Below, piece by piece: positions 17,607-48,772 of a DNA stretch of 64,000 bases. The notes beneath the pieces are model-generated. The model was given only the letters and a program-made list of their open reading frames with translations, had not been told where the DNA came from and ran no database searches. The stretch comes from Paramecium tetraurelia. Lineage: Eukaryota. Numbering within the stretch: position 1 is the first letter of the stretch; the number at the start of each line of letters is the position of its first letter. Made by a program: the position numbers and the translations under genes. The stretch is taken from assembly GCA_000165425.1 (NCBI GenBank), contig CT867993.1, forward strand, positions 186,001 to 250,000. The letters run 5' to 3'.

Positions 17607-18313
17607 ATGTAAATTTTTAAGAATTCTAAATTTTTCTTTGGAACACTCAAAGCTCACACTTTACCAGCCCTTAAGTATGGATACAGTGATCTTGAACCAG
17701 TTTTGAGTGCAACACTTCTTGAATTCCATCATTCCAAACATCATTAAGCTTATATCAATAATCTTAATGCTGCATAGGAGTAATTGGAGGATGCCTTAAC
17801 AAAGAATGATGTCTAGAAGATTGCCACTCTACAAGGCACCATCAAATTCAATTTGGGAGGCCATTTGAACCATAGTGTTGTTTTGGGAGAACTTGTATTC
17901 ATATTTAACTTATAATGCAGGACCCCAATTAAGAATGGAGGAGGACAATTACCTCATGGAAACAGTGCTCTAGTCTAAGAAATCAATAAAAATTGGGGAA
18001 GTGTTGACAACTTCAAGACATTCTTCAACACTAGAACTGCTGCAATTCAAGGCAGTGGATGGGGATTCTTGGGAGTTGATTAGCAATCAAAGAAATTGAG
18101 ATATTTGGAACTTCCCAATTAAGAAATTCCATAAAACTATGGTCTTACACCAATCTTAAGTAAAGATTCACACTTATACGATTAGCAATCGATGTTTGGG
18201 AACATGCCTATTGGTGGGATTACAAGAATGTGAGACCAAACTTCTTGGCTAATGTATGGAAAATCGTTAATTGGAAGGATGTAGAAGCAAGATATAATCA
18301 AGCTTAAAAATGA
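17607..18313 (+). CDS. SOD2: Mitochondrial manganese superoxide dismutase (one apparent +1 frameshift near 17877)
   Basis: [63 protein letters not shown]; short basic presequence; two introns. Confidence 0.93.
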
Positions 18314-21114: not shown

Positions 21115-21569
21115 TATATACCATTTTTATTAAAATTATTAAATTATAAAAATTGAAAAAAAAAAAAATAAAAAAAATTTATTATTACTTTTTTTGTAAA
21201 AATTCCTTTTTTAAAATTCTGCTTCAAATTTGAATTATCGATAGAAACCGAAAAATTTCTCAAGATTATCATTTAATAAGGATTGAAAAGTGTTTTTAAA
21301 AGTGAATTCTCTGCAGTAAGTCTTAAATCGATCGAAATTAATCATAATTTGAACTGCTCTAGTAGGCAGAATTTTGAAATTATTTGATGTTTAAAATACC
21401 TTGTGAGGAAGAGCATGTGCACAATTATCTATTTGACAATTAAAGTAGAGCAATATTATTATCCAAAATGTAATCAAATAAACCAATGAAATTAACGAAA
21501 TTTTTATAATTCGAATTCAAAGCTTAAGAGAAAAAACCTTAATAATAAAAATAAGAAAACATAATTAAA

Positions 21570-21877
21570 ATGGCAAAAGCAGCAACTAAAGGAAACAAAG
21601 GAGCAAAGAAGACAGCCCCCCCAAGTCAAATATTTAATTAATTGTAGAAGCTACCAAGCATGTCAAGAAAGTTACTAAAAAACCAACTGAAACAACTCCA
21701 GCACCAGCCCCAGTCACCACTACTCCATCTGTTCCAGCAACCGCAACACCAGTCGCTGCCTCTACACCCAAAAAGCAAGGCAAGAAAGTAGCCTAAAAGC
21801 CAAAGGGTAATAGTAATAAAAAGGGACCAGCCAAGAAAAACACTAAAAAGGCCCCCAAGAAACAAGTTAAGAAATGA
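21570..21877 (+). CDS. 94-aa Lys/Ala/Pro/Thr-rich basic protein, histone H1-like without globular domain
   Basis: One 23-nt intron (21625-21647). Product MAKAATKGNKGAKKTAPPKATKHVKKVTKKPTETTPAPAPVTTTPSVPATATPVAASTPKKQGKKVAQKPKGNSNKKGPAKKNTKKAPKKQVKK has 27 Lys, one acidic residue and a TPKK site. Confidence 0.7.
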
Positions 21878-22753
21878 TTAGTTATTTAAGAATTAATCAA
21901 TTAATTAGATTTAATTTTACTTTCTCCTCCTTGCCTCCTTTGCAATATTATTTTCTTATCAACTCCATCCTAAAAAATTTTATTTTAACAAATAAAAAAA
22001 TCAAAAACTAAAAAAAAACATACAGAAATCATTCATATTCAAAGAATTGAAAAGAATGTGACTTACTATCATCAATAGCAATAACTGGAGTGAAGGTTTC
22101 TCGGAAAAGGGAAGTATTCAAGATCCCAGATCCTAGTATATGATTTCAATATTGTATATTTAAACATCAAAGAATCAAAAATTCTAGATTCAGGTTTAGA
22201 GCGATGTCTGTCCATCTTGAATGATTTAAACACTAAAGGAGATGTTTGATTATGAAGAAATAATAGAAGTTTAATGAGAAGCAATATATCCTTTCTAATA
22301 GTAATTAAAAATGGTTTTATACAAATAAATAAATATTATTGGATATATATTTTATGAAAATTAATACTCTTGATTAAATCTTTTACTAATAGTTTCTTTA
22401 CTGCATAAGATCTCATTTTAGTACATATGCTCATGGAAATTTATAATGATATCTTTTGATTAAATATTTTAACTCCAATCATAATTTTCATGTTGAATCA
22501 TTATTCTCCTAATATTAACTAGATTTTCAAAGCCAGAGTTTGTCAAATACTTGTGATTGCGAATCTATAATAATTAACTCTTCTTTTAATGTAATCTTTA
22601 GTCCTTAAAAGACTCAAGTGTTATGTTTTTATTCCTGCAGAGATGATAATTAGGATTTTAAAATTAGATATAATATAGACATTTAAGATATTTTTTATTT
22701 AAGCAGTTCATATCTTAAATTATATGGAATAATTGTATAATTATTATTAAATA

Positions 22754-23774: not shown

Positions 23775-26422
23775 TCATTAAGGCAATGCTCCTCCAATTA
23801 ACTGTTGGGCTCCATTGAACAAGTTTATAGGGTTATTACCATCAGTGAAGATATAACCTTATAATCCCAATCCCTTGAGCAACTCAGCTTGCATTTCTGG
23901 TCCTGCATTGGCCATGGCAATAAGGGTATCTTGTCCTAAGGCTTCGATGATTTGCTCAAACTTATTGGATTCGATTGTAGCTAGTTCCTTGGCTCTTCTG
24001 ATTTCAAGTTCAGCCTTCTCTTGTTCATACTTGATGGTTTGATCTTGTTCCTTTTGCTTTTGTTTCAAAGCAGCTTCCTTTTCAATCTTATTGGCTCTTG
24101 CTCTCAATTGAGCCAATTCATATTCCTTTTGTGCTTTGATTTGTTCAGCCTTGGCAATGGCTTCAGCTTCTGCAATGGCAGATCCTTATTAAGTAACTTC
24201 TTGTGATTTGTTTTCCATTTCAAGCAATTTCTGTTTAGCAGCTTCAGCTTTGAGATCGTCTTCAATTCTCAATTAATCTAATTCACCCTAAGCTTATTGT
24301 TCTTGTTATTCAGCAACGTGTTAAGCAGCCTATTCCTATTTCTTGGTTGAAATTTCAATAGCCAAAGAAACAGATCTTTGAAGACTCTATCTAGTTTGGT
24401 TGTCCACTGGTTCGACTGTTTTGATATCTACATTAGTAATGACTAGATTATTCTTCACCATCAGATATTCCTTTCTGATTTTGCCATTTTCATCAGTACC
24501 GAAGATGGCTGTTCTGATGAGTTTGGCAGAGGTCTTATGGAATTTGTCGAAAACAACAGAGGCAACAGCAGCTCTGACTTTAGAAGCCATTTGATTACAG
24601 AGATCTCCAATGAAATCTTTGACTGCAAAGATCTGGGAGGCTGATTCAATGTTATTTTCATCTACCTTAAATCTCCAATTGTAAGCTAAGAGTAATTTCA
24701 AGACAGCATGATCGGATGTTTCAAACAGTGATTTCATCAGTGGAGAATTCTGGACCCATCATAACATGTAATGTATTGACAACACCAGGAGTCTTTGGTG
24801 TTTTACCAGACAAAGATAATTGAGTAAATACTTCATCTGGTTCTAAACATACCAAAGCAGGACCAAATACAATTCTTGTCTTCTTGGTCTTGTAATCATA
24901 GACCTACACTGATGTATTGAAGGGAGCTCTGTAACTAACAACCTTCCATTTGTCTCTCTTTCCACCTGTATGGAAATATTGAGATGACAACAATTATTCA
25001 ACGTTGTTTGGCAATTCCATAGACCATAATTCCTCATGGGATTTCAACATATAGGATTCACCAAAGACAGTTCTCACTTAACCTGTTCTTGTGTCTCTGA
25101 CATACACACCTTCATTCTTGTCAAGAGGAATTCTCTCTCTCTTCTCAATCACTTCCACTACAATGGGAGGTGTGTAGATGCATGGTCCATGAATCATCCA
25201 TTTATTACCTGGTTCATAGTCCACTTCAACTTCTTCAAATTAATTGTTCTTAGCCAACTTCTTCTCAGTGAATTTGCATTTCTCTTTTGCTCTCAAAAGC
25301 AATGCTTGATCCTCTGATAAGATGTAGGAATCTTGAATTCCATATTGCAAAGATTCATTGGGTCTAAGGAAAAAGCTTCTTGGACCTTCAACAAGCACTT
25401 TGGATCCAAATTTGTTTCTTTGAGTTTCAAAATCAAATGGATTCTCTATTATACAATATTGTCTTGGATCTAAAATGGTCAAATTTATCACAGTGACCAA
25501 TTCTTCAAACACATCCACTATGTGTGCAGATGTCTGTTCAGATGTTATCAAATATTCCTCTCCTGCCTTTCTCTCAATTGCTATTCATATTTACACATAT
25601 AAATTACAATAAACATCTTTGAAAGTCTGAATTGCTTTTAAATGCAATGCCTTGCGATTGTCCAAAATCTCAGCATCAATTATCTTGACAAACTCCTCAT
25701 AAACTTAAGGAAGATAGTATCCAGGTGTTCTAATCAACCACTGCTCTCCTGATTTTCTGACAACTCCATTAGAATCATTTTCTTCTTATTTTGCTCTGAT
25801 AAGAATTGCTTAATTCTCTTTAATTAGAATGGAATCGATTTATCCCAAGATCTTTTCCTCAATTCTTGGATAATAAGTGGCTGGACCTTTGAATAGGTAC
25901 TAGTCACCTGCCAAACTGTATTGTTGTTATTAAAATATGATACATATTATTTTCTCCCTATTTAAAGTTACGTTGTGCCTCTATTTTCAAGGCACTTCCT
26001 TCCTTTACAACTGTGAGCTTTTTAGGCTATTGAAGAAGGTTTTCTTTTGGGAAAAGGGGGAATGGAGTGCTGTACTGCTCGAAGAAACGAATCTCTCGTT
26101 CACCATGCAGAACGACAAATTGACTAAACATTAGAGGAATCTCATTACCCATATCGATCCTTAGTAGGCTAACCATCTTTATCCTTCACAATTGGGTTTT
26201 CAATGATGCAATAGTGTTGTTTTGGGAGCACAACCATTTTTTGAGGTTGTTAACCAGACGTAACCTTTGTTGCTATTTCATTATTACTTATTCATGGTCT
26301 TGACGAATAAAAGTTTACGGGCCTATCTCAACTCTAGTCACATTCGAATTGCAATCCAAGACATGTATGAATTAATATGGTAAAATTTTGTATGTGCTTG
26401 TCTATCCTTTGGCTTATGACAT
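23775..26422 (-). CDS. MVP: Major vault protein (one apparent +1 frameshift near 24723)
   Basis: Vault repeats ([49 protein letters not shown]), shoulder (ETSDHAVLKLLLAYNWRF...DFIGDLC...FDKFHKTSAKLIRTAIFG), cap helix ([30 protein letters not shown]). Confidence 0.95.
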
Positions 26423-47540: not shown

Positions 47541-48158
47541 ATGAAATATTATATCATTCTTTGTTTAGTTGCAGCTACTTTGGCTGGATCTTGTGGATAA
47601 ACATGCTGCTAGGATTTAAAGACCAGAGCTGCCATGACTTATCACTATTATATTAATACAGGTAGATTTGTTGGAGGCAGTGGAGACTCTGCAATTAAAA
47701 CATTTGGATATTCTGGTTCCGGTCAAGTATCTAAAGTCATATGATAAAATGTAGTATAGAAATGATCCAGCATCTATGTGCATCAAGAACAAAGGTCCTG
47801 CTCCAGCCACTACTTATAAAATTACATTGTGCAAAAACACAATGCATAATCCCCCAGTTGACAGACCTTGTTCTTTTTGGATCGAGGCAGTAGATGAAAA
47901 AACAATGTGTGGCAGAAGTGAAATCTTCATCCACGGTTGTTAATGCTGTTCAAATGGAGATTGGACCGAACCACCTGTTGATGGATGTTCTGCAGGGTAT
48001 TAAATATTTGATTACATCATTGTAGATGCGTCATCATAAACGAAGCCAATAGAAAGAAGTTAAGAGTAGGAGACACTATAATTATTGAATAAAGGGATCC
48101 ATTGGGTGATGATGTTCAATTCTTGGAAGATTACTCTTAATTTGCACAAGAAGAATGA
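47541..48158 (+). CDS. Secreted Cys-rich Tlde1/DUF2778-like (L,D-transpeptidase-related) protein, 186 aa
   Basis: Signal peptide MKYYIILCLVAATLA; introns 47727-47754 and 47997-48025; motifs GYSGSGQYRNDP, NKGPAPATTYKI, CGRSEIFIHG, CSAGCVII. Confidence 0.78.
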
Positions 48159-48200
48159 AGCAATTGTTACATCATTGGACAATTATTTATCAAATTATTT

Positions 48201-48772
48201 ATGAAATGTTTTCTTGCTCTTTTATTTGTTGTCATAGCATAAGCTGGGAATTGTGGACAAACTTGTTATTAAGATTTGCCAACGAAACCTCCAATGACAT
48301 TCTATAAGTTTATAAGCACTGGGAGATTCTTCGGAGGCAATGGCGATTCATCGAATAGTACTTTTGGTTATTCTGGAACTGGAAAAGTATTTATTCTACA
48401 GACTCAAAACTAGTTTAGAAATGCTCCCACAGCCTAATGAAGAAAGAACTAAGGACCTGTTCCTGCAAATACTTAAGCAATAAAAAAATGCTAAAATACA
48501 ATGCATAATCCTCTAGTGGACGGGCTTGTTCATTTTAGATAAACAGCAAGGACAAAGACAAAATGTGTGGAAGAACAGAAGTTGTGATCCATGGATGTGC
48601 TGGTTGTACACCTAGTGATTGGAATGGAATGTACCATCTATTGATGGCTGTTCTGCCTACAGGGTGATAAGTAATTGCTAAGATAGATGTATCATCATAA
48701 ATGAAGAGAGTAGAAAAACTAAGAGTGGGAGACACTTTGATCGTTTAGGATTATGATACATTGATTGATTGA
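48201..48772 (+). pseudogene. Decayed tandem paralog of the Tlde1/DUF2778-like gene
   Basis: Same signal peptide layout, motifs (GYSGTGK, GPVP, CGRTEVVIHG, GCSA) and intron positions; in-frame TGA at 48438-48440 plus several indels. Confidence 0.8.

What the first reader, a model, noticed from the sequence alone, without database searches (positions are those of the whole stretch)
21570..21877. Candidate macronuclear linker histone H1 lacking a globular domain
Seen: 94 aa, 27 Lys, one acidic residue, rich in Ala/Pro/Thr, repeated KK pairs, an STPKK CDK-type site and several TP sites; the codons are noticeably less AT-rich than in neighbouring genes. Established: Tetrahymena macronuclear H1 (Hho1p) is a basic protein without the winged-helix domain and is regulated at S/TPxK sites. 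To my knowledge no H1 has been confidently identified in Paramecium by homology. Inference: this low-complexity protein could be the overlooked linker histone.
Basis: partly seen in the sequence, partly recalled or inferred. Interest (0 to 1): 0.7.

Follow-up and report, generated by a model that had tools for sequence, protein, structure and literature searches.

The report
Candidate missing Paramecium linker histone H1
This small, very basic and heavily transcribed Paramecium gene carries the same promoter signal as the core histone genes, which makes it a strong but unproven candidate for the linker histone H1 that published work could not find in this organism.

Summary
The gene is real: 21570-21877 (+), one 23-nt intron seen spliced in RNA reads, 94 aa, 27 Lys, 1 acidic residue, no globular domain. 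It is kept in four whole-genome-duplication copies, all transcribed, dN/dS about 0.2. It is highly expressed: the window copy alone reached about 740-820x depth in two of three poly(A) runs, against 9-50x for its two neighbours. New evidence beyond composition: a CCAAT box 83-87 nt before the ATG in all 4 copies. The same box sits in 31 of 32 canonical core-histone promoters, but in 1 of 210 background, 0 of 17 tubulin, 0 of 4 PCNA and 0 of 11 RPS8 promoters. The protein has two lysine blocks around a 29-residue lysine-free Thr/Pro/Ala spacer with four TP sites, one of them CDK-type. Best reading (0.65): a globular-domain-less H1-like chromatin protein made with the core histones, working like Tetrahymena Hho1 and the 7-9 kDa H1s of trypanosomes and Toxoplasma. 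Homology to Hho1, nuclear location and co-expression with histones were not shown, and the published 151-bp nucleosome repeat argues against classical linker binding. The scan's earlier notes held nothing on this DNA.

The parts
21458..21468 (+). Upstream promoter block with TATCC, conserved in all four copies; core-histone promoters have a TAT(T/C)C about 8 nt before CCAAT, here it lies 18 nt before
   Evidence: likeness judged by eye
21477..21493 (+). CCAAT box (core 21483-21487, 87 nt before the ATG), 17 nt identical in all four copies; core-histone-type promoter element, probably an NF-Y site (inferred)
21554..21569 (+). Transcription start region and short 5' UTR; read 5' ends pile up at 21554-21572
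   Evidence: table 6 (reads of all four copies pooled)
21570..21624 (+). Exon 1, residues 1-18, start of the first lysine block
21625..21647 (+). 23-nt GT..AG intron, same place and length in all four copies
21648..21877 (+). Exon 2: end of lysine block 1 (11 K in residues 1-30), lysine-free spacer (residues 31-59, 11 Ser/Thr, four TP sites, CDK-type T58), lysine block 2 (16 K in residues 60-94), TGA stop
21878..21913 (+). Conserved 3' UTR block, nearly identical in the four copies, echoed in the outside relative P0002 and similar to histone H4 3' UTRs; its hairpin is not better than shuffles

Best explanation
A small, disordered, globular-domain-less H1-like chromatin protein, produced in bulk together with the core histones and most likely loaded on macronuclear chromatin. 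Shown: spliced poly(A) transcript, high level, four retained copies under purifying selection, extreme Lys/Ala/Pro/Thr make-up, no fold, histone-type CCAAT promoter. Inferred: NF-Y drives it with the core histones during DNA synthesis; the two lysine blocks bind and neutralise DNA electrostatically; phosphorylation of the lysine-free spacer (CDK-type T58 plus neighbouring TP/Thr sites) makes a negative patch that loosens binding, as shown for residues 35-54 of Tetrahymena Hho1. Because Paramecium linkers are only a few bp, it probably bridges or screens DNA between nucleosomes or fibres rather than sitting on a long linker.
For: Splicing, strand and 5' ends. Window copy 158 of 644, 744 of 3735 and 821 of 2915 reads at a diagnostic base, against bin depths of at most 20 and 51 for the two flanking genes. 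Four syntenic copies, dN/dS 0.17-0.22 in three pairs. [AGT]CCAAT[CG]A at -55 to -110: canonical core histones 31 of 32, divergent H3 variants 0 of 4, candidate 4 of 4, background 1 of 132 and 1 of 210; tubulins 0 of 17 and PCNA 0 of 4; RPS8 0 of 11. 3' UTR resembles H4 3' UTRs (7 of 8 score in the top 7% of background, found after the fact). No PF00538 match in G000, no Pfam match, no secondary structure in the model, pTM 0.18. Precedents: Hho1 lacks the globular domain and is regulated by a charge patch (PMC2173238); T. brucei H1 is 7-8 kDa, pI about 12, Lys/Ala/Pro-rich (PMC3486875); TgH1-like is 9 kDa (PMC9769792).
Against: No sequence link to a known H1: the only outside hit in three word-seeded searches and one full HMMER scan was the unnamed P0002. 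Hho1 itself was not compared directly. One CDK consensus site against three in Hho1 (PMC7460583). The nucleosome repeat is about 151 bp, which has been linked to the absence of H1 (PMC8997360). The CCAAT 8-mer is no commoner in the window than in shuffles (9 against 8.97), so only its position and conservation count; its score under the histone matrix (11.7) is below most histones (17-26) and was exceeded by 4 of 132 background promoters. The four copies are one ancestral event, and the histone genes are not independent of each other either. The same box lies in a Ran/Rpn11 promoter. Background gene starts come from my own rough gene model. No location or binding data.
Confidence: 0.65

Rival explanations
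1. A linker or condensing protein of the micronucleus or of the developing macronucleus rather than of the vegetative macronucleus.
For: Same histone-type promoter evidence. The window copy's level differs about fourfold between X21 and X22/X23 while neighbours change about twofold or less. Tetrahymena has separate macro- and micronuclear linker proteins.
Against: The high mRNA level fits the large polyploid nucleus better (inference). No HMG box, no Arg and one CDK-type site, unlike the micronuclear MLH products, which have HMG boxes (PMC4122937 passage) and lack cdc2 sites (cited title only). Conditions of the runs are unknown.
Confidence: 0.13
2. A nucleolar, ribosome-associated or RNA-binding basic protein.
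For: Basic, abundant and retained in four copies, as ribosomal protein genes often are; TgH1-like is itself partly nucleolar and pulls down ribosomal proteins.
Against: No Arg and no hydrophobic core; no match among PDB chains at E up to 1. It lacks the AATAAAATCTTTT element seen by eye in 11 of 11 RPS8 promoters (a near-identical pattern scored 0 of 4 copies) and has the histone box instead.
Confidence: 0.12
3. A cytoskeletal or ciliary protein that binds acidic microtubule tails through its lysine blocks, with a Pro/Thr spacer for kinase control.
For: Lys/Pro/Thr-rich disorder with TP sites also occurs in microtubule-associated proteins (recalled); Paramecium expresses many cortical proteins highly.
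Against: Tubulin promoters lack the box (0 of 17); no repeats or coiled coil; the histone-like 5' and 3' signals are left unexplained.
Confidence: 0.07
4. Not a protein gene: an artefact of ORF calling, or the shadow of the 171-aa antisense ORF at 21517-22032.
For: An antisense ORF overlaps it; no protein-level evidence was found.
Against: Spliced, stranded transcripts with under 2% antisense reads; dN/dS about 0.2 and frame-preserving indels between the intact copies; a relative outside this genome.
Confidence: 0.01

Closest known systems
Tetrahymena thermophila macronuclear H1 (Hho1p)
   Same: Lysine-rich, no globular domain, CDK-type site, clustered Ser/Thr sites in a mid-protein stretch (residues 35-54 in Hho1 per PMC2173238; TP at 35-58 here), intron-containing gene (title of Wu 1986 as cited).
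   Different: Much shorter (94 aa against about 160, recalled), almost no acidic residues, one CDK consensus against three, four gene copies against one; no homology detected and none tested pairwise.
Kinetoplastid single-domain H1 (Trypanosoma brucei H1)
   Same: Similar size (9.7 against 7-8 kDa), pI 11 against about 12, Lys/Ala/Pro-rich, multi-copy, no globular domain (PMC3486875).
   Different: A 29-residue lysine-free Thr-rich spacer splits the charge into two blocks; distant lineage, likeness is compositional.
Toxoplasma gondii TgH1-like
   Same: Alveolate, 9 kDa predicted, basic, no globular domain, long overlooked, mid-protein phosphosite (S43) (PMC9769792).
   Different: No sequence match found; TgH1-like is experimentally nuclear and nucleolar, this protein is untested.
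Canonical tripartite H1 with the GH1 winged helix (PF00538), including Stylonychia H1.1
   Same: Resembles the Lys/Ala/Pro C-terminal tail with S/TPKK.
   Different: No GH1 domain here or anywhere in G000.

Membership tests
Single-domain H1 (Hho1 / kinetoplastid type) | Small, very basic, Lys/Ala/Pro-rich | tested here: met
   29% Lys, 73% K+A+P+T, pI 11.1, 9.7 kDa
Single-domain H1 (Hho1 / kinetoplastid type) | No globular winged-helix domain | tested here: met
   No Pfam match, no Leu/Ile/Phe/Trp/Tyr, no secondary structure in the exon-2 model
Single-domain H1 (Hho1 / kinetoplastid type) | CDK consensus site(s) in a cluster of phosphorylatable residues | tested here: met
   TPKK at 58 in all three intact copies and P0002; 11-12 Ser/Thr in residues 31-59. 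Motif only; one site, not three
Single-domain H1 (Hho1 / kinetoplastid type) | Regulated with the core histones / S phase | tested here: inconclusive
   Promoter signature shared; co-expression not measured, reads were laid on this locus only
Single-domain H1 (Hho1 / kinetoplastid type) | Sequence homology to Hho1 | tested here: inconclusive
   Hho1 was not available for a pairwise test. Word-seeded searches covered 39-132 and 185-2000 aa and so skipped its recalled length; the unrestricted HMMER scan returned only P0002. Low complexity limits all of them
Single-domain H1 (Hho1 / kinetoplastid type) | Perchloric-acid solubility, release from chromatin at moderate salt | not testable with these tools
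   Features listed in PMC2173238; bench test
Single-domain H1 (Hho1 / kinetoplastid type) | Macronuclear location on linker DNA; loss decondenses chromatin | not testable with these tools
   Bench test; the 151-bp repeat leaves little linker
Canonical H1 (PF00538) | GH1 winged-helix domain | tested here: not met
HMGN / HMGA chromatin proteins | Arg-containing nucleosome-binding core or AT-hook (motifs recalled) | tested here: not met
   No Arg in the protein; no Pfam match
Ribosomal proteins | Family match, solved-structure match, ribosomal promoter element | tested here: not met
   (only RPS8 promoters were available as the ribosomal control)

The most novel reading that the evidence does not exclude
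Paramecium does have an abundant H1, but one adapted to the shortest known nucleosome repeat: a two-block polycation with a neutral, phosphorylatable hinge that cross-links nucleosomal DNA without needing a linker. The link drawn between 151-bp spacing and loss of H1 would then be wrong, and H1 function would be uncoupled from linker length.
Probability: 0.35. Interest if true: 0.85.

Novelty: new member of a known kind. Interest (0 to 1): 0.68.

Why it matters
Three papers from 2022-2025 state that no H1 has been found in Paramecium and use that to explain its very short linkers and its apparently condensation-free gene silencing (PMC8997360, PMC8997361, PMC11789628; passages read). A concrete four-gene family with a histone-type promoter makes the question directly testable by RNAi, GFP tagging and MNase-seq. 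It also bears on models in which nucleosome spacing guides programmed DNA elimination. The promoter signature is a way to find H1-like genes that homology searches miss.

Tried and rejected
Homology: exon 2 alone, near lengths, nothing at E up to 0.01; profile at longer lengths, nothing among 7999 scored; Pfam 0; PDB sequences 0; metagenome pattern scan 0 and profile scan 603 pattern hits, none confirmed. The ESM Atlas was not searched, so feature-level look-alikes remain open. No RNA holder was listed by the run index; expression rests on three raw-read runs added by species label. Longer 5' frames from ATGs at 21387 and 21468, which my gene model preferred: rejected, since read 5' ends lie at 21554-21572 and the models of the other copies start at the short ATG. 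Antisense ORF: rejected. A histone-type stem-loop in the 3' UTR: not supported, z = -0.02 to -1.6. GC-rich codons as a sign of high expression: mostly explained by composition. Frameshifts in copy L002 as gene decay: two of five extra bases are absent from its spliced reads, so assembly error is likelier; the other three were not checked. Tight promoter pattern genome-wide: 53 sites against 7 for the reversed control; I classed 4 as this family, 4 as core histones, 1 as Ran/Rpn11, 36 inside predicted coding regions and 8 as other non-coding sites; the pattern was shaped with the candidate in view, so this is descriptive only. Controls dropped for lack of a clear start codon: 13 of 30 tubulin loci, 1 of 12 S8e loci, all 4 S3Ae loci examined. 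The sigma-70 scan is irrelevant to a eukaryote. Supplement searches for H1 terms and two peptides found nothing in PMC11789628 (2 files) and PMC8997361 (2 files, one further file not searchable). Earlier scan notes: nothing relevant.

Full report
1. The observation. The window lies in G000, a 72.1-Mb assembly in 697 contigs. Code 6 and 23-nt introns fit Paramecium; the size fits P. tetraurelia (recalled). The stretch 21570-21877 is not open as it stands. Removing a GT..AG intron at 21625-21647 gives 94 residues ending at TGA. The lysines form two blocks (11 in residues 1-30, 16 in 60-94) around a lysine-free spacer with 11 Ser/Thr. Among 242 predicted proteins in 464 kb, none other came near its net charge or K+A+P+T content. 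The high GC is mostly due to the amino acids (42.0% expected, 44.6% seen). A mild high-expression codon bias remains: AAG makes up 40 of 80 Lys codons in three copies, against 33% in background and 44% in histones.

2. It is a real, abundant, conserved gene. A DNA search found four copies with aligned flanks in two pairs, 88% and 83% within pairs and 72-76% between them. This is the pattern of two genome duplications, after which 49% and 76% of duplicates were lost and highly expressed genes are preferentially kept (PMC2869310, passages). The intron is in the same place in all four. Three copies are intact (94, 91, 91 aa) with dN/dS 0.17-0.22. The fourth, L002, has five extra bases in the assembly; two are missing from its spliced reads, so these look like assembly errors. 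In three oligo-dT runs laid at 80% likeness, reads are stranded, show the exon junction, have 5' ends at 21554-21572 and include sequence specific to each copy. At a base that separates the window copy from the other three, it supplied 158 of 644, 744 of 3735 and 821 of 2915 reads, about 140, 580 and 640 per kb per million letters. The flanking genes reached at most 20 and 51 per bin, and the major vault protein gene 130-280, each with its own duplicates pooled. Reads were 58 nt and family totals are lower bounds; the run conditions are unknown. One outside relative exists: P0002, an unnamed Logan protein, 59% identical to exon 2. Its tail reads through the TGA into letters that match the same 3' UTR, so it is probably an ortholog from a related ciliate (inference).

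3. The promoter ties it to the histones. All four copies share a 17-nt block with CCAAT 83-87 nt before the ATG. I fetched the histone-fold genes of G000 and scored [AGT]CCAAT[CG]A between -55 and -110 on either strand: canonical H3, H2B, H2A and H4 31 of 32; divergent H3 and CenH3-like variants 0 of 4; candidate 4 of 4; predicted background genes 1 of 132 and, with more DNA and a stricter model, 1 of 210. Highly expressed or replication controls lacked it: tubulins 0 of 17 and PCNA 0 of 4 with a clear start, RPS8 0 of 11, one partly unreadable. RPS8 promoters carry a different element that the candidate lacks. NF-Y-like histone-fold genes are present (family name by eye). Limits: the 8-mer is at chance frequency over the window; the candidate's site is weaker than most histone sites under a matrix, with 4 of 132 background promoters scoring higher; gene families are not independent counts; background starts are predicted; a Ran/Rpn11 promoter also has the box. 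A second, weaker sign found after the fact: the 3' UTR resembles those of H4 genes (7 of 8 in the top 7% of background; a pattern in 4 of 4 copies, 4 of 8 H4 genes and 1 of 224 background genes). Its hairpin is not significant.

4. How it most likely works. There is no fold: no Pfam family, no PDB relative, an AlphaFold model of exon 2 with pTM 0.18 and no secondary structure (four-sequence alignment). G000 has no PF00538 match. I infer a polycation that is made with the core histones, enters the nucleus through its lysine clusters and binds DNA by charge. The spacer is the best conserved part and would become a negative patch when phosphorylated. That parallels Hho1, where five sites in residues 35-54 act as a charge patch that speeds exchange (PMC2173238, passages), three of them CDK sites (PMC7460583, passages). 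HHO1 mRNA peaks in macronuclear S phase (PMC9930529, passages). With a repeat of about 151 bp (PMC8997360, passages) there is little linker, so bridging or charge screening is likelier than classical linker binding. Confidence 0.65; rivals are a micronuclear or developmental protein (0.13), a nucleolar or ribosomal protein (0.12) and a cytoskeletal protein (0.07).

5. Comparison with what is known. It works, by inference, like the single-domain H1s: Hho1, T. brucei H1 (7-8 kDa, pI about 12; PMC3486875, passages) and TgH1-like (9 kDa; PMC9769792, abstract and passages). It is not a canonical GH1 histone. Membership in the Hho1 lineage is unproven: no search linked it to a named H1, and such links often fail among ciliate H1s (the Euplotes H1 shows no similarity to the globular domain; PMC4122937, passages). 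The biochemical criteria need bench work.

6. Novelty. PMC8997361 could not identify a macronuclear H1 and allowed that it may be too divergent (passages); PMC8997360 and PMC11789628 say the same. Five library searches on Paramecium with H1, linker-histone, CCAAT or acid-extraction terms (listings and abstract starts, at most 25 rows each) showed no paper naming a Paramecium H1. Subscription journals, older biochemical work, database annotations and unseen proteomics supplements could hold one. The scan's own notes had nothing on this sequence.

7. Verdict. Observation confirmed; interpretation partly supported and strengthened by the promoter evidence. New member of a known kind; interest 0.68.

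Noticed in passing
L002:1622-1934 (-): The fourth copy has five extra bases in the assembly that break the frame; reads lack at least two of them, so the gene is probably intact and may be mis-annotated.
   Followed up: partly
L005-L033, L062-L069 promoters: Core histone genes share a CCAAT box at -57 to -91, forward in H3 and H2B and reverse in H2A and H4; divergent H3 variants and one H3 gene (L012) lack it.
   Followed up: yes
L155-L165 promoters: RPS8 genes share an AATAAAATCTTTT element just before the start codon, a likely ribosomal-protein promoter or 5' UTR motif.
   Followed up: no
L082:1400-1584: A Ran-like GTPase and an Rpn11-like gene (names by eye) share a short divergent promoter with the CCAAT box.
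   Followed up: no
window 23775-26422 (-): Major vault protein gene (Pfam Vault and MVP_shoulder), well expressed.
   Followed up: partly
window 17607-18313 (+): Predicted gene resembling Mn/Fe superoxide dismutase (by eye).
   Followed up: no
window 21931-22750: Unusually long untranscribed stretch after the gene; a DNA contig differs from the window by two 2-nt deletions near 22314 and 22343.
   Followed up: no
window 47541-48667 (+): Tandem small cysteine-rich genes with signal-peptide-like starts.
   Followed up: no
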